A DNA stretch of 38,888 nt from Nanobdellati archaeon (GTDB taxonomy: Archaea > Nanobdellota > Nanobdellia > Woesearchaeales > JAADFO01). The stretch is from assembly GCA_013152815.1 (NCBI GenBank), contig JAADFO010000002.1, positions 1-38,888 on the forward strand, given 5' to 3'. Below, piece after piece: positions 142-35,396 of this stretch. The notes under the pieces were generated by a model that made no database searches, was not told where the DNA came from, and saw only the letters and a program-made list of their open reading frames with translations. Position 1 is the stretch's first letter. Each line of letters starts with the position of its first letter. A program made the position numbers and the translations under genes.

Positions 142-1599
142 TCAAATCGGCGATGTCCATTTTTTATCTTCTTCAATCTGCTTATTGACCGCAATTGCAA
201 AGGCTGAGTCTTTATCGGAACCAAGAATATCGGTGATCTTCAGTTTATTTTCCCCGATGAAGTCTGCTGCAAACTTGACCAGGTTGTCCTGTGTTGAAGC
301 ATCATCGCTGTTTTTGTAGAAGAGCGATGCGGCGTTGAACACAGCAATCTTATCATCAGCTGACACTACGGCATCTCCTGCGTCTTTCAATTCATCTATG
401 GCCCCATCCAAACGCTGGACATACTGGTTTTGATAGTTCGCCTGCAGTAGATGGACATAAGCGGTCTTTTTACTGATAGCATCGTATGCTTTCTCAACTT
501 TTTTCTTCTCTTTAGCAGTGGCATCTTTCGGATTATCAGGCAACTTATCATAAACTTCAAGATAGGCTGTTACTTTTGAAATATCATCAGAGTCCTTTTG
601 CATTTCATTAAGCTTCATAACCAATTTATCATGTTCAGTAGGAAGATCCAACGGATTCCCTTCCAAAGTAAACGGATTTTCGGGGTCTTCTGCCAATTCT
701 TTAATCGAATCTGTGAGTTTCTTTACCTTAGCAGCCCGAGAAACCCTCTGGGCAGCTACCAGCGCAGATATCTTTTTCTTGAAATCCTGAACATCCGTAA
801 AGCCTGATTTGATGGCGGGCGGTTGTTGGCTCTGTTCAATAGACGCAAGAACTTCAGAGTCAAGAACGGTCAATTTATTGAGAAAGTTATCAATCGATTT
901 CACACCACTTTTCCTTTTCTTTAAATCAGCTAATTTTTTCTTATACTCTTCCAGCTTACTTAAACTATCAGCATTTGAAATACCCAGGTGCAGAGTTCCA
1001 AGATCCGCAATCTTCTTTTCCAAATCAGTTATTTTCAAGTCAGCTAATGTTTTCTTATACTCTTCCAGCTTACTTAAACTAGAAATACCCAGGTGCAGAG
1101 TTCCAAGATCCGCAATCTTCTTTTCCAAATCAGTTATTTCTTTTTCTTTCTGTCTACTTGTGACAGGATTATTGGGAGACTTTGATTTTTTGATGTTCAG
1201 CACCTGGGCCAGGAGGGTATTCCCGGCTGTGATATCCTTGGAATTGGAATTGTCTTTTTTTGTGAATTTCTTTGCGTATGATTTGATGATCGCATCAGTA
1301 AAACTTCTCGTTTTCAGGTCATTATTTATTTTATTAAGCTTTTTTGTATCAGTGAGATATTCGTTCATCGCCGTAATGGTGTCTGTATCGACAATGCCAT
1401 TGACAGTAATTGGTTTGCCTTTATGTTCTTGATTGTAGAGGATCTTGAAGGCAAGGACAGCGGCCTCTGTCCTGGAGCCGTACTTTCCGTCGATGTTGCC
1501 GGGATCCAAACCCAACGTTTTCAGGCCCTTCTGGATCTTGTGGACATCACCATCGTTATCCTTATCAACAGTGGTCAGCTTTTTGTTTTCAAAAGTCAA
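142..1599 (-). CDS. Protein with N-terminal peptidoglycan-binding (PG_binding_1-like) domain and coiled-coil body; possibly the 3' half of a frameshifted gene
   Basis: 485-aa ORF with TTG start. GDVHKIQKGLKTLGLDPGNIDGKYGSRTEAAVLAFK...VNGIVDTDT matches the PG_binding_1 pattern (Q-L-LG, DGxxGxxTxxAV, GxV). AT-rich, with an internal duplication. Confidence 0.75.
   Translation of the reverse strand: MTFENKKLTTVDKDNDGDVHKIQKGLKTLGLDPGNIDGKYGSRTEAAVLAFKILYNQEHKGKPITVNGIVDTDTITAMNEYLTDTKKLNKINNDLKTRSFTDAIIKSYAKKFTKKDNSNSKDITAGNTLLAQVLNIKKSKSPNNPVTSRQKEKEITDLEKKIADLGTLHLGISSLSKLEEYKKTLADLKITDLEKKIADLGTLHLGISNADSLSKLEEYKKKLADLKKRKSGVKSIDNFLNKLTVLDSEVLASIEQSQQPPAIKSGFTDVQDFKKKISALVAAQRVSRAAKVKKLTDSIKELAEDPENPFTLEGNPLDLPTEHDKLVMKLNEMQKDSDDISKVTAYLEVYDKLPDNPKDATAKEKKKVEKAYDAISKKTAYVHLLQANYQNQYVQRLDGAIDELKDAGDAVVSADDKIAVFNAASLFYKNSDDASTQDNLVKFAADFIGENKLKITDILGSDKDSAFAIAVNKQIEEDKKWTSPI
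919..1137 (-). repeat. In-frame tandem duplication (114 bp + 105 bp)
   Basis: 919-1032 and 1033-1137 are nearly identical and encode ITDLEKKIADLGTLHLGIS(NAD)SLSKLEEYKKxLADLK twice. One copy has a 9-bp insert. Confidence 0.95.
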
Positions 1600-3494: not shown

Positions 3495-4762
3495 CAGGGC
3501 ACCTCGATGACATAGGCAGTCTTGTTGATGAACACCCCGTCGTCGAAGAGCAGGACCTCGAAGAAGTGCTCTCCCTGATCAGCCATGAGGGGCGTATAGG
3601 TAAGCGACGATCCATTGAAAGCAAAGGGACCGGTGACATATCCGGTGTAGGGAAAGTCAGGAAGGGGGGATGCGACCGGGAAGCTGTGGCGGAAGGTCAC
3701 TCCGACGGCAGCGCGCAGACGCAGGGAATCTGCCGGAACGGTCTGGGTGATCTCGATGGGCACCGCTTCCCTCACCAGGACAGGACCGTCCTGCAGCTCC
3801 AGGAAGAGGGTGTGGTTGCCCACATCCTCTGGAAGAGGCGTGAACCTGAGCACACCTGCAGACCTGTTGATGAAAAAGCCGGGCGTGTGCATGCTGAAGT
3901 TGACATCGCTCTCATTGAGCGCGTCGAAATCATAGGAGAAGGGCTGGCCGACGACTGCCCGGAGGGGAGCAAGGTTGGTGAACCTGTTCTCAGGGGTGGT
4001 GTCAAAATCATAGATCGAGCTCACCATGAAGACCAGGGGGAAACCGAGAAGTTCCTCATCACCCTTGATGACATAGACGACCTCATTCTCCCGGTAGGCA
4101 TGCACAGAGACATCCATGCCGAACTGGTTCATGAACGTGGGATCGATCTCATCGGGAAGGGCAAGCTCCATGTCGGCGATGGCCTTCCCCACATAGAGCG
4201 CGTGGCCGAATTGGGTAGTCAGTTCGGTGCGGAAGGCATCGACGGTCAGCACCTCGTCATCGAGGGTCATCTCCAGAGTGTAGGATGTCTCGAAGATCAC
4301 CTTGCTCTCGGTGATGGTTGCCAAGGTATGAGGTTCTGCCAATACCTTGACCGGATAGGGGAAGTCCTGGAAATCGTTGAGGCACGAAGGGAGCACCTCA
4401 TCCATGTAAAGAGAGAGCTGTGAAGCAACCTCTTCATCTGTCGGCCGCGTATCCATGCCCTTGTCATACCAGGCAGCGACAGAGGACATGATCGTATCCA
4501 CCCTCGGCTGGTCATCGGGAAGGTGGGTGAAACCGCCCTGGGAGCCCGCCAGGACCAGGGCCTGCCGGCCTGTCTGCCGCATGCAGGCCTCGACATAGGA
4601 CTGGAGCGGAGCTGCCTTCTGGGGCGTCTTCTGCCGAAGCCCTGTCTCGGTCTGCGCAGGCCCCACTGCAGAGGGTTCTGCGATGGAAAAGAACAGGACA
4701 GCTGCTGCGAGAAGAACAAGACCGATGATGATGAAAAGGCTCACCTGACCTTTAGGATGCAT
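3494..4762 (-). CDS. KGQ-motif (class III signal peptide-like, pilin-like) surface protein with C-terminal Ig-like repeats
   Basis: MHPKG|QVSLFIIIGLVLL N-terminus; LQSYVEACM...GSQGGF motif; two AxVGxxFxyxF...LxxTP...DxGxHxxxxxl segments resembling putative Ig (He_PIG-like) domains. Start placed at 4762 from the TATA position. Confidence 0.75.
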   Translation of the reverse strand: MHPKGQVSLFIIIGLVLLAAAVLFFSIAEPSAVGPAQTETGLRQKTPQKAAPLQSYVEACMRQTGRQALVLAGSQGGFTHLPDDQPRVDTIMSSVAAWYDKGMDTRPTDEEVASQLSLYMDEVLPSCLNDFQDFPYPVKVLAEPHTLATITESKVIFETSYTLEMTLDDEVLTVDAFRTELTTQFGHALYVGKAIADMELALPDEIDPTFMNQFGMDVSVHAYRENEVVYVIKGDEELLGFPLVFMVSSIYDFDTTPENRFTNLAPLRAVVGQPFSYDFDALNESDVNFSMHTPGFFINRSAGVLRFTPLPEDVGNHTLFLELQDGPVLVREAVPIEITQTVPADSLRLRAAVGVTFRHSFPVASPLPDFPYTGYVTGPFAFNGSSLTYTPLMADQGEHFFEVLLFDDGVFINKTAYVIEVP

Positions 4763-4787
4763 TATGGCTCTATTTCTGAGCATGATG

Positions 4788-4796
4788 ATATATAAA
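4788..4796 (-). promoter_or_regulatory. Archaeal TATA box (TTTATATAT) for the pilin-like/secreted protein operon
   Basis: TTTATATAT on the minus strand ends about 25 nt before the ATG at 4762, consistent with a leaderless mRNA. Confidence 0.6.
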
Positions 4797-4811
4797 CATT
4801 ACTATCTGGGA

Positions 4812-5106
4812 GGCTCTGGAGAAAGTTACGCTTTCGCGTGGTCAGCATCAGGCTCGGCCACAGTAATGAGTCTGCTTCTGCCGTTCCGGCCCCGCACCTG
4901 GTTACGCTCAGTTGACACGCAATATGGAGCATGAAGCGCCATTACGCTGCCATGCTGTGCATCTGCAAGGCAGCGATGCGGAACAACGGGTTCCGCTTCC
5001 TTTGATCAAACTTTCGTGAAAGTTTGGGGGCAACCCCCGAAACTCCTTCGCTCCTGTCTTGGATAATGCCTCGCAAAGGATGCTGACCTCACTTTCTTAC
5101 AGAGCC
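4812..5106. mobile_element. Non-autonomous MITE-like element, copy 1 (295 bp; IS5/IS903-like TIRs; 9-bp TSD TATCTGGGA)
   Basis: Left end GGCTCTGGAGAAAGT (4812-4826), right end ACTTTCTTACAGAGCC (5091-5106). Exact direct repeat TATCTGGGA at 4803-4811 and 5107-5115. Second copy at 31680-31975. No ORF. Confidence 0.9.
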
Positions 5107-5124
5107 TATCTGGGAAGGGCAAAC

Positions 5125-5520
5125 CTATTTCTTCTCTTTCATCTTCTTGGTGATGTCGATATTGGCATCGCAGTGCTGACAGTGCACGCGGATGGTATCC
5201 ACGCCGTCGATCTTCTTCCGCTTGTAGGGAACAGCCGCCTCGCCTTCTTTGCCGCAGGAAGGACAGCGATAGGCCGACTCGATCATCAGGCTCTCTTCAT
5301 AGGCTTTCTTCTCGACAGTGTACCCGCAGGCTGGGCATACATACTCTTTGGCGCGGATCTTCACCTGACCCTGCTTTCCGGTCGGCTTGCCCATCTTCGC
5401 CTTGCCGCATTTCGGGCAGAGGGACCGATAGACCCATGCCCTCACGTTGCCATCGCCAATGGTCCTGTTGGTGAAATAGATCAGCTCTTCCATGCTCTCG
5501 GGTTCTGTCACCATCATCAT
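5125..5520 (-). CDS. Multi zinc-ribbon protein
   Basis: 131 aa with four CxxC pairs (CPKC, CPAC, CPSC, CQHC). The start overlaps the upstream gene (ATGA) and is preceded by GAGGTG. Confidence 0.8.
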   Translation of the reverse strand: MMMVTEPESMEELIYFTNRTIGDGNVRAWVYRSLCPKCGKAKMGKPTGKQGQVKIRAKEYVCPACGYTVEKKAYEESLMIESAYRCPSCGKEGEAAVPYKRKKIDGVDTIRVHCQHCDANIDITKKMKEKK

Positions 5521-25788: not shown

Positions 25789-25863
25789 GGGCGCGTGGCG
25801 CAGTCTGGATAGCGCACTTGGCTTCGGACCAAGGGGTCGGGGGTTCGAATCCTCCCGCGCTCA
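25789..25863 (+). tRNA. tRNA-Arg (anticodon TCG), intronless, CCA not encoded
   Basis: Acceptor GGGCGCG/CGCGCTC + A. D arm GCGC/GCGC with GGA (A20 Arg identity element). Anticodon stem CTTGG/CCAAG with loop CT-TCG-GA. T loop TTCGAAT. Confidence 0.93.
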
Positions 25864-31679: not shown

Positions 31680-31975
31680 AGCTCTGTAGAAAGTTACGCT
31701 TTCGACGTGGTCAGCATCGGACTCGTCCACCGATGAATATACCTCTTCTGCCGTTCCGGCCCCGCACCTGGTTACGCTCAGTTGACACGCAATAGGGAGC
31801 ATGAAGCTCCATTACGCTGCCCTGCTGTGCATCTGCAAGGCAGCGGTGCGGAACAACGGGTTCCGCTTCCTTTGATCAAACTTTCGTGAAAGTTTGGGGG
31901 CAACCCCCGGAACTCTTCCGCTCCTGAGCAGGGTAAGGCCTCGCAAAGGATGCTGACCTCACTTTCTACAAAGCC
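31680..31975. mobile_element. Non-autonomous MITE-like element, copy 2 (296 bp; 9-bp TSD YCTTCTGAC)
   Basis: Left end AGCTCTGTAGAAAGT, right end ACTTTCTACAAAGCC. Flanks TCTTCTGAC (31671-31679) and CCTTCTGAC (31976-31984). Colinear with copy 1 and in the same orientation. Confidence 0.9.
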
Positions 31976-31989
31976 CCTTCTGACCGAAG

Positions 31990-31998
31990 TTTTTTAAA
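31990..31998 (+). promoter_or_regulatory. Archaeal TATA box for metG
   Basis: CGAAG-TTTTTTAAA ending 23 nt before ATG 32022. No RBS, so probably leaderless. Confidence 0.55.
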
Positions 31999-32021
31999 GC
32001 ACGCTGCGTTCTTCAGTCGCC

Positions 32022-34208: not shown

Positions 34209-35396
34209 GCTTGCCTTCTTTGCAGCGGCCTTCTCAAGATTGAGGCAGGAATTCATCAGATAGATGTTCGTGATCTCACTACAGACTGTATAGTCCCCTT
34301 CCAGGGCGAAGGACAGGAGACAGGAGTCCTTCTTGCTCGGGATGAGGATCTGGTCACACATCGCCTTGTCATCCACCTCATCCGCCACCTGGGCGATGCA
34401 TTCATCCTTCTGCGCCTGGTCGGTGAGCGTGGTGCAGAGGTCATGAGCCTGGTCAGGATCGGTTGTTGCAAGGTTCCTCGCGAAGATCAGCTGTTCACGC
34501 GGGTCCAGGTCACGGAAGCTGCGGTCTCCCTGGGTGCATGCCCGGCAGATGCCGCCGCAGTCGATGCCGGTCTCGTCCTGGTTCCTGATGCCGTCGAAAC
34601 AGGAAGCGGTCAGGCAGGGCCTGCAGACGCCGCCGCAGTCCACCCCTTCCTCATCCTGATCCTGGACATTGTCGAAGCAGCTCCCCTCGACGCAGGGGAC
34701 GCAGGAACCCCCGCAATCCACATCGGTCTCATCACCGTCCAGCAGTCCGTCGCTGCAATGGTCGCAGGGGTCGCAGCTCCCGCCGCAGTCCACCCCGGTC
34801 TCGTCCTGGTTCTGCTCATTGTCGAAGCAGGTGGGGACCGGCCCTTTCTTATAGACCTTGAAGAGGAAACTCGCCACCGCCTGCTTGCCCTCATAGTCGG
34901 CCAGGGTCTGCATAAGATAATAGCCCGGAGAGAGGTCAGCGGGTATGTCGATGGTCGTCGTGGAGGAACCTTTGGTCTCGATGGCCATGGTCTCTTTCTT
35001 CGAGAGCAGCTCGTCACCGTTCCGGGGATTCAGGATCGAATGGGTCAATACCATATCATGGCGTTTTGCAGAGCCCATGCTGGAGATCTCCTTGATGAAG
35101 GACAGCTGGCCTCCCGGCTCTACGTCCACCTGCAGCGGCTTGGTGTTGAGGTCGAGGAGGAACGACGGTTCAGACCGGTTGAACGCGGTGAAGAAGACGA
35201 CCGCCATGGCCACGACCACGACGAGAAAGCCGACGATGATGAGGGCCATCGGCAGATGATGGTGTTCCTGCCGGGCAAGGCCGGCATCGATTATTGACGG
35301 GGCATAGCCTGCCCGCAGGAGCGAGAGCTTTATCTGGGAATCCGGAACACCCCTTTTTCGCTGCTCCTGGATGTAGGCATGGAGTCGCGGGTCCAT
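34170..35396 (-). CDS. Membrane-anchored surface protein with Ig-like domain and four Cys-rich DCGG repeats
   Basis: MDPRLHAYIQEQRKRG helical N-terminus, one TM helix, an Ig-like region, 4x CxDxxxxxDExxxDCGGxCxxC, and a Cys-helical C-terminus. TTTTATATA about 24 nt upstream. Confidence 0.8.
   Translation of the reverse strand: MDPRLHAYIQEQRKRGVPDSQIKLSLLRAGYAPSIIDAGLARQEHHHLPMALIIVGFLVVVVAMAVVFFTAFNRSEPSFLLDLNTKPLQVDVEPGGQLSFIKEISSMGSAKRHDMVLTHSILNPRNGDELLSKKETMAIETKGSSTTTIDIPADLSPGYYLMQTLADYEGKQAVASFLFKVYKKGPVPTCFDNEQNQDETGVDCGGSCDPCDHCSDGLLDGDETDVDCGGSCVPCVEGSCFDNVQDQDEEGVDCGGVCRPCLTASCFDGIRNQDETGIDCGGICRACTQGDRSFRDLDPREQLIFARNLATTDPDQAHDLCTTLTDQAQKDECIAQVADEVDDKAMCDQILIPSKKDSCLLSFALEGDYTVCSEITNIYLMNSCLNLEKAAAKKASSADPASGDALAS

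What the first reader, a model, noticed from the sequence alone, without database searches (positions are those of the whole stretch)
4812..5106. The mobile element carries a nested multi-helix structured RNA (or ssDNA), favoured on the minus strand
Seen (copy 1 coordinates): nested long-range stems inside the TIR stem are GGTCAGCATC/GATGCTGACC (4840-4849/5079-5088), GTTCCGG/CCG[A/G]AAC (4883-4889/5037-5043) and CCGCACC/G[A/G]TGCGG (4892-4898/4975-4981). Local hairpins are CGCTGCC/GGCAGCG, GGAGC/GCTCC, GCGGAAC/GTTCCGC, CAAACTTT/AAAGTTTG (5007-5026) and GGGGG/CCCCC. Several differences between the copies (at 4976 and 5040 in copy 1, and two TIR positions in copy 2) give C-A mismatches on the plus strand but G-U pairs on the minus strand. 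ACGC-GAAA-GCGT is a GNRA hairpin on the minus strand. The ~180-nt core has only 7 substitutions. Some features (a GCAA loop, one G-U) favour the plus strand, so polarity is not certain. Inference: the interior is under structural selection, more than transposase binding at the ends would need, suggesting an unannotated mobile ncRNA.
Basis: partly seen in the sequence, partly recalled or inferred. Interest (0 to 1): 0.85.

Follow-up and report, generated by a model that had tools for sequence, protein, structure and literature searches.

The report
Archaeal mini-transposon carrying nested structured module
This is a small non-coding jumping element of a tiny (Woesearchaeota-type) archaeon that carries, at the tip of its own hairpin, a five-hairpin module from a family that in related archaea sits inside tRNA genes as introns.

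Summary
Window 4812-5106 is a 295-nt MITE with terminal inverted repeats and a 9-bp target duplication (TATCTGGGA). It is one of 10 complete copies in this 1.49-Mb genome: 4 long, 6 short. Its ends match a 943-bp insertion sequence encoding a PF01609 DDE transposase in a related genome.

The long form equals the short hairpin MITE plus a 132-nt module (4895-5026) at the hairpin tip.

The long-range stem CCGCACC/GRTGCGG is not supported.

Polarity is split. The module favours the plus strand, which is the tRNA-sense strand in relatives.

The module's 26-nt head, a hairpin followed by ACACGCAA, occurs in 73 of 401 genomes of the order and in Nanohaloarchaea. There it heads spliceable tRNA introns, tRNA leaders and trailers.

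No Rfam family matches and no expression data could be obtained. Earlier notes of this scan describe the same MITE and hairpin families in other genomes. I found no paper on them in four searches. How the module moves is unknown.

The parts
4803..4811 (.). left copy of the 9-bp target-site duplication TATCTGGGA
   Evidence: Identical 9-mer at 5107-5115 (with the element end set at 5106).
4812..5106 (+). MITE copy 1, long form, 295 nt
   Evidence: Repeat family in the own genome. TIR and TSD. The ends match the IS in L231.
4812..4826 (+). left terminal inverted repeat GGCTCTGGAGAAAGT
   Evidence: Pairs with 5091-5106. The same terminus is found in 48 of 401 genomes of the order at up to 3 mismatches to a 20-mer.
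4825..4839 (+). left-arm extra segment absent from the right arm. It reads either as ACGC-TTTC-GCGT or as GAAA-GTTACGCT-TTTC, carrying the same 8-mer as the P1 loop.
   Evidence: Read. The loop letters vary between copies, so the minus-strand GNRA reading is not conserved.
4840..4849 (+). arm stem GGTCAGCATC, pairing with 5079-5088
   Evidence: Two arm subtypes keep the pairing through two double changes, GGTCAGCATC/GATGCTGACC and GGCCGGCATC/GATGCCGGCC.
4883..4889 (+). arm stem GTTCCGG, pairing with 5037-5043
   Evidence: Present in all copies. It shows only one-sided changes (A.C or C.A) and no double change.
4895..5026 (+). 132-nt nested module, absent from short copies, where TA or C stands in its place
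   Evidence: Long/short comparison. Covariance model R1 scores it 132.5 bits.
4895..4923 (+). module head: P1 hairpin (4895-4914, loop GTTACGCT) plus the conserved single strand ACACGCAA(T)
   Evidence: The 23-nt pattern occurs in 73 of 401 genomes with 0 control hits. There are 81 exact loci in genome contigs. P1 shows compensatory variants.
4924..4942 (+). P2 hairpin ATGGAGC-ATGAA-GCGCCAT (A4928.G4938 mismatch in this copy)
   Evidence: 5 of 7 pairs have double changes in A5.
4945..4975 (+). P3 hairpin CGCTGCC / GGCAGCG with a loop of about 17 nt
   Evidence: 6 of 7 pairs have double changes.
4978..4996 (+). P4 hairpin GCGGAAC-AACGG-GTTCCGC
   Evidence: 6 of 7 pairs have double changes, and 98.4% of cells pair.
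5007..5026 (+). P5 hairpin CAAACTTT-CGTG-AAAGTTTG
   Evidence: 3 of 8 pairs have double changes, and 91% of cells pair.
5027..5039 (+). GGGGG-CAA-CCCCC hairpin, which belongs to the MITE tip and not to the module
   Evidence: It is also present in short copies.
5091..5106 (+). right terminal inverted repeat ACTTTCTTACAGAGCC
5107..5115 (.). right copy of the target-site duplication TATCTGGGA
31680..31975 (+). MITE copy 2, long form, 296 nt. Its module is at 31765-31896. The flanking 9-mers match at 8 of 9 positions.

Best explanation
The finding is a composite selfish element.

(1) Outer part: a hairpin-shaped MITE.
- The short form is about 165 nt.
- It is moved cut-and-paste by a trans-acting IS5-type DDE transposase (PF01609).
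- That transposase binds the roughly 16-nt terminal inverted repeats and makes 9-bp target duplications.
- The assembled genome holds no such transposase.

(2) Inner part: a 132-nt module (4895-5026) sitting exactly at the tip of the MITE hairpin.
- It is made of five independent hairpins, P1 to P5, on the window's plus strand.
- It belongs to a family spread through Woesearchaeales and seen in Nanohaloarchaea.
- The family's constant part is a 26-28-nt head: the P1 hairpin with loop GTTACGCT, then ACACGCAA.

In other genomes, shorter relatives of the module lie in sense orientation inside tRNA genes (T-loop 59/60, anticodon 37/38, D-loop). There a bulge-helix-bulge-like junction lets the splicing endonuclease remove them. 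They also lie in tRNA leaders and trailers.

Inferred, not shown:
- The module is itself a mobile passenger that enters hairpin tips or loops.
- Its helices are kept because it must fold on itself as a single strand. I put RNA at about 55%, single-stranded DNA at about 35%, and neither at about 10%.
- In this MITE it is not spliceable and simply rides along when the MITE transposes.
For: MITE:
- 10 complete copies with unrelated flanks.
- Flanking 9-mers are identical in 5 of 10 copies and match at 8 of 9 positions in 1. One copy has an 8-bp repeat, 1 is degenerate and 2 have none (with copy 1 corrected to end at 5106).
- The terminus pattern occurs in 48 of 401 genomes of the order.
- A 943-bp element in L231 has the same 16-nt ends, a 9-bp duplication (TACATCTTT) and a 293-aa ORF matching PF01609 (E 1.8e-9, 38.1 bits against a cut-off of 23).
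- L163 is a 284-nt MITE in another genome with GGCTCTGT ends, a perfect 9-bp duplication and the same head motif.

Module as a separable unit:
- Long and short copies exist for both arm subtypes, and the module replaces only TA or C at the tip.
- In G122 the module also sits at another place in a different repeat.

Structure:
- A2 (18 copies): 95.2% of cells pair, and 18 of 36 pairs change on both sides. With slid partners, 32-43% pair and at most 7 pairs change. 0 of 500 shuffles reach the observed values.
- A5 (27 copies, 12 genomes): 95.5% pair and 24 of 36 pairs change on both sides.

Strand:
- 47 G.U cells against 17 A.C cells on the plus strand.
- tRNA T-loop signatures lie in sense 69 times and antisense 17 times in 157 contexts.

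Relatives as introns:
- 24 T-loop inserts were collected.
- In 23 of them the T-loop TTCR pairs with YGAA or a wobble variant at the insert's 3' end (read).
- Their three hairpins covary at 14 of 21 pairs.
Against: - No transcription data: none could be listed, so RNA is inferred from the relatives only.
- The A5 alignment is fitted to the model and leans towards it. Copies within a genome are not independent.
- Much of the G.U excess comes from two conserved pairs.
- The four copies in this genome show decay, not compensation: 2 of 4 in-module differences between the window copies break a pair.
- Both strands fold equally well, and 9 of 10 whole copies fold better on the minus strand.
- Complementarity of DNA palindromes can be kept by DNA-level processes without any selection on RNA.
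- I found no bulge-helix-bulge at the module's borders in the MITE (by eye only).
- No transposase homologue is in the 90.8%-complete assembly.
- No mechanism of module mobility is shown.
Confidence: 0.7

Rival explanations
1. The module encodes a functional trans-acting small RNA. Its conserved head (the P1 loop and ACACGCAA) binds a protein or another RNA. It uses tRNA transcripts, via introns, leaders and trailers, and MITEs merely as vehicles for expression and processing.
For: - The head is nearly invariant across families of the order: 73 of 401 genomes hold the 23-mer within 2 mismatches. It is identical in Nanohaloarchaea records.
- It is always placed so that tRNA processing would release it: directly after the discriminator base in L160, L190 and L133, or inside introns.
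- It has a strand bias towards tRNA sense.
Against: - The distribution is patchy (328 of 401 genomes lack it) and copy number runs from 0 to 16, which fits a selfish element better than a needed RNA.
- Everything but the head varies or can be missing.
- Beyond the repeat copies themselves, no stretch of the own genome matches the head (30 nt, both strands) better than a perfect 11-mer or a 17-nt match at 88%.
- No Rfam family matches.
- In this genome the motif occurs only inside MITE copies.
Confidence: 0.15
2. There is no RNA role at all. The hairpins are DNA palindromes, small selfish hairpin repeats that stack into one another. Complementarity is kept because the elements act and are copied as single-stranded DNA hairpins or cruciforms. 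The 'covariation' partly reflects one palindromic unit being replaced by another.
For: - P3 and P4 share almost no sequence between genomes while keeping their form.
- Further small hairpins are nested inside module loops in some copies (L027, L058, and the G122 copies L104-L106 and L109).
- Both strands fold equally well.
- The MITE arms, which lie outside the part shared with the IS, are also complementary and show the opposite strand bias.
- Earlier scan notes describe hairpin-tip-seeking repeats in other phyla. Those are leads only.
Against: - Stem lengths, loop sizes and the order of hairpins are the same across 12 genomes, which replacement by unrelated palindromes would not give.
- There is a strong sense bias relative to tRNA genes.
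- Relatives inside tRNA genes must be handled as RNA for the tRNA to work, and they keep a splice-type junction in 23 of 24 cases.
Confidence: 0.25
3. The whole 295-nt element, arms included, is one minus-strand structured RNA, and the MITE features are secondary.
For: - 9 of 10 copies fold 2-16 kcal/mol better on the minus strand.
- The consensus fold of 5 short copies is -62.4 kcal/mol on minus against -53.1 on plus.
- Arm mismatches are minus-type wobbles 19 times and plus-type 4 times.
- Copy 1 lies between two minus-strand genes, so read-through would make its minus strand.
Against: - The module inside is plus-sense.
- Orientation relative to neighbouring genes is mixed among the 10 copies (crude ORF calls).
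- The bias could equally come from deamination-type mutation on one strand.
- The minus-strand GAAA loop is not conserved.
- TIR, TSD and a matching IS explain the ends.
Confidence: 0.1

Closest known systems
MITEs derived from IS5-family (DDE_Tnp_1, PF01609) insertion sequences. I recall the IS903 group as the subgroup with 9-bp duplications. This is recalled, not tested. An earlier scan note (e1-949735) names the same group.
   Same: Short, non-coding and dispersed, with terminal inverted repeats identical over 16 nt to an IS that encodes a PF01609 transposase, and with the same 9-bp target duplication.
   Different: The arms are complementary far beyond the transposase-binding ends. The element carries a separable structured module. 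No partner IS is in the assembled genome. Subgroup membership was not tested against reference ISs.
Structured bacterial MITEs such as Correia (Neisseria) and ERIC/IRU elements (recalled; the prokaryotic MITE review PMC10969869 was seen only as a search listing).
   Same: A long imperfect hairpin when single-stranded, intergenic, and lying next to promoters.
   Different: An archaeal host, a different transposase family and duplication length, and a nested foreign module with its own conserved head.
Non-canonical bulge-helix-bulge tRNA introns and 'tRNA intron transposition' in Thermoproteales (Fujishima et al. 2010; recalled, not read here).
   Same: Relatives of the module are related introns that occur at several positions (59/60, 37/38, D-loop) in many tRNA genes, with a splice-type junction.
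   Different: Here the shared part is a defined hairpin head found also outside tRNA genes: in MITEs, in leaders, in trailers and at the 5' ends of protein genes. The copy in the window is not in a tRNA gene and shows no splice junction.
tRNA-Thr gene disruption in Caldiarchaeum subterraneum: a 5' tRNA fragment, a 1.8-kb element with a recombinase gene, then an intact tRNA (Sugahara et al. 2012, PMC3293823; abstract read).
   Same: In relatives, a 15-25-nt copy of the tRNA's 5' end lies upstream of the module and an intact tRNA lies downstream.
   Different: The inserted piece is only 60-130 nt and has no gene. The same pattern occurs before protein genes.

Membership tests
MITE of an IS5-family (PF01609) insertion sequence | Terminal inverted repeats matching those of an autonomous IS | tested here: met
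   The IS in L231 starts and ends with the same 16 nt as the consensus of this genome's copies. Its ORF matches PF01609 at E 1.8e-9.
MITE of an IS5-family (PF01609) insertion sequence | Target-site duplication of the same fixed length as the IS | tested here: met
   The duplication is 9 bp. It is perfect in 5 of 10 copies, including copy 1, and matches at 8 of 9 positions in copy 2. It is also 9 bp in the IS and in L163.
MITE of an IS5-family (PF01609) insertion sequence | Too small to encode a transposase; many dispersed copies | tested here: met
   The element is 295 nt, and only ORFs of 41-56 aa overlap it. There are 10 complete copies plus solo ends on 12 contigs. No Pfam scan of the short ORFs was done.
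MITE of an IS5-family (PF01609) insertion sequence | Autonomous partner in the same genome | tested here: not met
   tblastn of the L231 transposase against the assembly gives nothing better than E 0.31. No transposase-like ORF lies next to the 10 solo ends, judged by eye from the first 60 residues printed for each ORF; no Pfam scan was run. The assembly is 90.8% complete.
IS903 group of the IS5 family | Transposase and end sequences cluster with reference IS903-group members | not tested
   The resemblance (9-bp duplication, ends starting GGC) is recalled. No reference sequence was compared.
Archaeal bulge-helix-bulge intron | Interrupts an RNA gene that is restored by its removal | tested here: not met
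   The window copy lies in an intergenic MITE. Relatives do interrupt tRNA genes: 24 T-loop cases, plus anticodon-loop and D-loop cases.
Archaeal bulge-helix-bulge intron | Bulge-helix-bulge motif at the two borders | tested here: inconclusive
   By eye I found no 4-bp central helix with 3-nt bulges at CCCCG|CAC and GTTT|GGGGG in the window, and no program was run. In relatives, TTCR pairs with YGAA followed by a 3-nt bulge in 23 of 24 cases (read).
Any Rfam 15 family | Match at or above the gathering score | tested here: not met
   The only match in the window is a tRNA at 25789-25863. With E up to 10, the region 4700-5250 gives only sub-threshold snoRNA-type and other hits (10.6-19.7 bits against cut-offs of 36-70). 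Most lie left of the element.
IS200/IS605-type palindrome-associated elements / omega RNA | No terminal inverted repeats and no target duplication; subterminal hairpins | tested here: not met
   The element has clear inverted ends and 9-bp duplications.

The most novel reading that the evidence does not exclude
The hairpin-headed module is a new kind of mobile element that invades exposed hairpin loops at the RNA level: tRNA D-, anticodon- and T-loops, and the tip of transcribed MITEs. It would enter by cleavage and ligation and then be fixed in DNA by reverse transcription and recombination.

This would explain three things:
- Its relatives are in tRNA-sense orientation.
- They keep splice-type junctions.
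- In leader-type insertions, the upstream direct repeat begins at the 5' end of the transcript. In 5 of 7 measurable tRNA cases it begins 1-3 nt before tRNA position +1. In several protein genes it begins at the start of a leaderless or short-leader mRNA (by eye).

If true, it would be a working route by which archaeal tRNA genes gain introns.
Probability: 0.12. Interest if true: 0.9.

Novelty: new variant of a known kind. Interest (0 to 1): 0.6.

Why it matters
How archaeal tRNA genes gain introns at odd positions is an open question. Here a defined, recognisable module is seen in every supposed stage:
- as a spliceable intron in three tRNA loops,
- as a leader or trailer appendage,
- as a passenger at the tip of a DNA transposon that can carry it between sites and genomes.

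That gives a concrete sequence family with which intron gain can be tested. It also shows that a MITE can be a vehicle for a second, unrelated selfish element.

For annotation, the 26-nt head is a simple marker for interrupted tRNA genes that standard tRNA finders miss. In DPANN genomes ARAGORN called none of the tRNA genes that hold it (0 of 157 contexts).

Tried and rejected
- Rfam at gathering score and at E up to 10: no family matched (also 7 related loci, tRNAs only).
- Viral contigs: 0 exact matches to the 23-mer.
- Transposase next to the 10 solo ends in the own genome: no transposase-like ORF, judged by eye from the first 60 residues of each ORF; no Pfam scan was run. tblastn with the IS transposase: nothing.
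- Idea that the head marks the border of an integrated element at a tRNA 3' end: the 15-mer tRNA end occurs only once in the complete Nanosalina genome, so there is no second att-like copy.
- Idea that the head is antisense to another RNA of the genome: beyond the repeat copies themselves, no stretch of the own genome matches the head (30 nt, both strands) better than a perfect 11-mer or a 17-nt match at 88%.
- Long-range helix CTGGTT/AACCAG in tRNA introns as an alternative to P1: from my reading of the 17 aligned introns, about 8 carry an AAYCAG-type 3' partner and 2 a wobble variant. It is therefore not general.
- Bulge-helix-bulge at the module borders in the MITE: none seen by eye.
- TIR-plus-TSD search around module copies of other genomes: only 1 locus (L163) passed. 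The G122 host repeat has other ends.
- Orientation of copies relative to flanking ORFs: mixed.
- Earlier-findings look-ups by sequence: nothing.
- Thermodynamic strand choice for the whole element: no difference.
Full report
WHAT IS AT THE COORDINATES

A second copy lies at 31680-31975. The window is contig C2 of a 1.49-Mb assembly of 76 contigs, 90.8% complete.

BLAST against that assembly finds:
- four long copies of about 295 nt (two on C2, one each on C12 and C75);
- six short copies of 120-166 nt (C43, C44, C58, C27, C28, C60);
- about ten solo ends.

All complete copies start with GGCTCTG(T/G)AGAAAGT and end with its reverse complement.

The 9 nt on either side of the copies compare as follows:
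- identical in 5 of 10 copies (copy 1 TATCTGGGA, once its end is set at 5106; C12, C44, C58, C27);
- 8 of 9 positions match in window copy 2;
- an 8-bp repeat in C75;
- degenerate in C43;
- no repeat in C28 and C60.

This is the signature of a DNA transposon without a gene, that is, a MITE.

WHICH TRANSPOSON

The 20-nt left end, with up to 3 mismatches, occurs in 48 of 401 genomes sampled from the same order. The reversed control gives scattered single hits, and one of the 48 genomes is an unpublished one.

In one genome (L231) two such ends face each other 943 bp apart. They are flanked by the 9-bp repeat TACATCTTT and enclose a 293-aa ORF that matches Pfam PF01609, the DDE transposase domain of IS4/IS5-type elements (E 1.8e-9, 38.1 bits, cut-off 23). 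Only about 16 nt at each end are shared between this IS and the MITE.

The own assembly has no homologue of that transposase (best tblastn E 0.31). None of the ORFs next to the solo ends looks like one, judged by eye from the first 60 residues printed for each; no Pfam scan was run.

My recollection is that 9-bp duplications and such ends are typical of the IS903 group of the IS5 family. I did not test that.

LONG EQUALS SHORT PLUS A MODULE

The short copies are collinear with the long ones except at the tip of the hairpin. Where short copies read CCCCG-TA-GGGGG or CCCCG-C-GGGGG, long copies read CCCCG-[132 nt]-GGGGG. The 132 nt are window 4895-5026.

The arms come in two subtypes. These differ by, among other things, a double compensatory change in the second stem: GGTCAGCATC/GATGCTGACC against GGCCGGCATC/GATGCCGGCC. 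Both subtypes exist with and without the module.

THE MODULE IS NOT CONFINED TO THIS GENOME

Searching relatives with the whole element hit only its nucleotides 83-113, at 89-97% identity, in five genomes of other families.

The 23-nt pattern CTGGTTACGCTCRGTTGACACGC, with up to 2 mismatches, occurs in 73 of 401 genomes of the order. There are up to 16 copies per genome and no hits to the reversed control. Four of the 73 are unpublished genomes, so the count without them is 69 of 397.

Exact matches in named public records number 81 loci. Their titles name Woesearchaeota, Nanoarchaeia/Nanobdellota, several Nanohaloarchaea (including the complete genome of Candidatus Nanosalina sp. VS9-1) and one 'ainarchaeum'. 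No viral contig has it.

The pattern is a hairpin, CAACTG-GTTACGCT-CAGTTG, followed by ACACGCAA. Variants keep the stem through double changes: ATG/CAT, GTG/CAC, CGG/CCG, and a CAGCTT/AAGCTG version.

CONTEXTS OF THE HEAD MOTIF

I read 96 distinct contexts in one batch and 157 in all. They fall into four groups.

(a) Inside tRNA genes.
- 24 inserts lie in the T-loop between positions 59 and 60. Others lie after position 37 and in the D-loop.
- The T-loop inserts are mostly 78-118 nt (range 46-182).
- In 23 of 24, the T-loop letters TTCR pair with YGAA or a wobble variant near the insert's 3' end, followed by a 3-nt bulge and the T-stem. TTCA goes with TGAA and TTCG with CGAA (read).
- That is the central helix and 3' bulge of a bulge-helix-bulge splice site, in relaxed form.
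- Their three hairpins covary at 14 of 21 predicted pairs in 17 sequences.

(b) In front of intact tRNA genes or protein genes, preceded by a 15-50-nt copy of the gene's own 5' end. For tRNAs where ARAGORN called the downstream gene and a repeat could be aligned (7 of 11), the repeat starts 1-3 nt before position +1 in 5 of 7.

(c) Directly after the discriminator base of tRNAs in Nanohaloarchaea.

(d) In MITE-like hairpin repeats as a long five-hairpin form, as in the window.

ARAGORN called none of the tRNA genes that hold the motif (0 of 157).

STRUCTURE OF THE LONG FORM

Eighteen long-form copies from 7 genomes align over 135 columns.
- RNAalifold predicts P1-P4, with 16 of 27 pairs showing double changes.
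- With P5 added by hand: 95.2% of 647 cells pair and 18 of 36 pairs change on both sides. With slid partners, 32-43% pair and at most 7 pairs change. 0 of 500 shuffles reach the observed pairing, double-change counts or covariation score.

A covariance model (R1) finds matches at E up to 0.001 in 48 of 151 sampled genomes of the order, one of them unpublished. Full-length matches above 100 bits occur in 8 of them: G059, G122, G000, G079, G074, G113, G072 and G076.

A model-fitted alignment of 27 copies from 12 genomes gives 95.5% pairing and 24 of 36 pairs with double changes. P3 and P4 have 6 of 7 each. This alignment leans towards the model. Copies within one genome are also not independent, so the counts overstate the number of events.

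GGGGG/CCCCC belongs to the MITE tip.

It has no counterpart in other genomes, where the 5' side reads CCGCAAC and no GTTGCGG follows.

WITHIN THIS GENOME THE EVIDENCE IS WEAKER

Four of these lie in the module. 4925 breaks a P2 pair in copy 2, 4938 breaks one in copy 1, and 4952 and 4976 are unpaired. No compensation is seen. The case for selection on structure rests on the comparison between genomes.

POLARITY

Thermodynamics does not choose a strand: z is -5.5 on plus and -5.6 on minus.

For the module, the plus strand is favoured:
- 47 G.U cells against 17 A.C/C.A cells. Much of this comes from two conserved pairs, and the alignment was fitted to a plus-strand model.
- In 157 contexts, sense T-loop signatures lie next to or downstream of the motif 31 + 38 times. 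Antisense signatures occur 6 + 11 times.
- ARAGORN finds same-strand tRNAs near 15 contexts and opposite-strand tRNAs near 4.

- 9 of 10 copies fold 2-16 kcal/mol better on minus.
- The consensus fold of five short copies is -62.4 kcal/mol on minus against -53.1 on plus.
- Arm-to-arm mismatches are minus-type wobbles 19 times and plus-type 4 times.

That pattern would arise from selection on a minus-strand fold. It would arise equally from deamination-type mutation on one strand, and I cannot separate the two.

The minus-strand GAAA tetraloop is not conserved. In the copies printed (full, truncated and solo-end copies alike) the loop reads GAAA, GUAA, GUCA, GCCA or AUCA on that strand. The same left-arm segment can instead be drawn as GAAA-GTTACGCT-TTTC, with the very 8-mer of the P1 loop (4825-4832 and 4901-4908). 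A related MITE in L178 also has AAAAGTTACGCTTCC in its left arm. This is unexplained.

WHAT I THINK IT IS

It is a composite of two selfish elements. The outer MITE moves as DNA by a DDE transposase supplied in trans; this is shown by anatomy and by the matching IS, not by experiment. The inner module belongs to a DPANN-wide family that enters loops of hairpins: three tRNA loops and the tip of this MITE. In tRNA genes it persists where the splice machinery can remove it. In the MITE I see no splice junction, so there it is a passenger.

Its helices are conserved in a strand-specific way. I consider RNA the more likely folding molecule because its relatives are necessarily transcribed in sense within pre-tRNAs. 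Single-stranded DNA hairpins would give the same pattern, however.

How the module moves is unknown. The direct repeats that begin at transcript 5' ends suggest an RNA step or Campbell-type recombination of small circles. A comparable arrangement with a 1.8-kb recombinase-bearing element is described for Caldiarchaeum (PMC3293823, abstract read).

LITERATURE

Four full-text searches returned no paper whose title or abstract describes this motif, module or MITE family. The terms combined tRNA intron, DPANN, Woesearchaeota, Nanoarchaeota, bulge-helix-bulge, MITE and insertion sequence. I read only listings, plus one abstract. Subscription journals are not covered.

Earlier notes of this scan on other genomes describe the following:
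- the T-loop intron family (e1-3398942);
- a 32-base hairpin repeat shared by tRNA introns (e1-900184);
- the 'decoy tRNA start plus hairpin' leaders (e1-4892109);
- a hairpin family behind tRNAs (e1-2891253);
- a promoter-side MITE family with a nested module (e1-949735).

I had reached the same observations from the sequence before reading these notes, and I tested most of them here. They are not independent evidence.

VERDICT

The finding is real. This is a new variant of known kinds (MITE; mobile archaeal tRNA-intron-like element), with an open and testable question about how the module moves.

Noticed in passing
window 4784-4811, 31976-32021, and the flanks of the other copies (C12, C43, C27, C75, C28 of the own genome): MITE copies sit just upstream of TATA-like boxes of outward-facing genes. 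The element end lies 46-47 nt before the start codon of the next ORF in 4 of 10 copies and 29-89 nt before it in 4 more (crude ORF calls). An earlier scan note on another genome reports the same habit.
   Followed up: partly
window 4825-4832 and 4901-4908; L178: The 8-mer GTTACGCT of the module's P1 loop also occurs in the MITE's left arm, where it can be drawn as the loop of a GAAA/TTTC stem. A related MITE in another genome has it too. The meaning is unknown.
   Followed up: partly
arms of all 10 copies in the own genome (e.g. window 4812-4894 with 5027-5106): Arm mismatches are A.C or C.A on the plus strand (G.U on minus) 19 times and G.T only 4 times. This means either a minus-strand fold or one-strand deamination bias.
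   Followed up: partly
loci L020, L023, L033, L046, L049, L050, L074, L096, L098, L099, L122 and others: In other genomes the head motif is preceded by a 15-50-nt copy of the 5' end of the downstream tRNA or protein gene. The copy starts at or within 3 nt of tRNA position +1 in 5 of 7 measurable cases. In L033 and L046 (by eye) the sequence just upstream of the intact gene copy, i.e. the 3' end of the inserted piece, carries a Shine-Dalgarno-like run.
   Followed up: partly
L076, L064, L089: Tandem arrays of the unit [gene 5' fragment + head motif + hairpin] occur, repeated two or three times.
   Followed up: no
L104, L105, L106, L109 (G122): Module copies are interrupted in P5 by a further inserted repeat. 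In L105, L106 and L108 the module sits after the right arm of the host repeat instead of at its tip. L106 retains only the head and part of P5.
   Followed up: no
own genome C44:51600-51872 and C37:15626-15760: Two older, truncated copies keep the left arm plus a diverged P1. C44 has the stem CAACGG/CCGTTG, another double change, and a P2. C37 has ACAG/CTGT.
   Followed up: no
window 4703-4865: Weak archaeal C/D-box sRNA-type Rfam hits lie just left of the element (sR3 17.4 bits against 41, E 0.04; sR1 16.3 bits against 45, E 0.083), overlapping the start of the minus-strand gene. They are below threshold and probably chance.
   Followed up: no
window 34536-34830: There are four tandem copies of a 67-nt GC-rich unit spaced 72-78 nt apart (61-79% identity to the reference copy). 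It is possibly a repeated protein domain.
   Followed up: no
window 915-1139: Two pairs of direct repeats (58 nt at 100% identity, 53 nt at 91%) are spaced 105-114 nt apart in an AT-rich stretch.
   Followed up: no
window 25789-25863: A tRNA gene lies here (Rfam 62.3 bits). It is the only Rfam match in the window and has no head motif.
   Followed up: no
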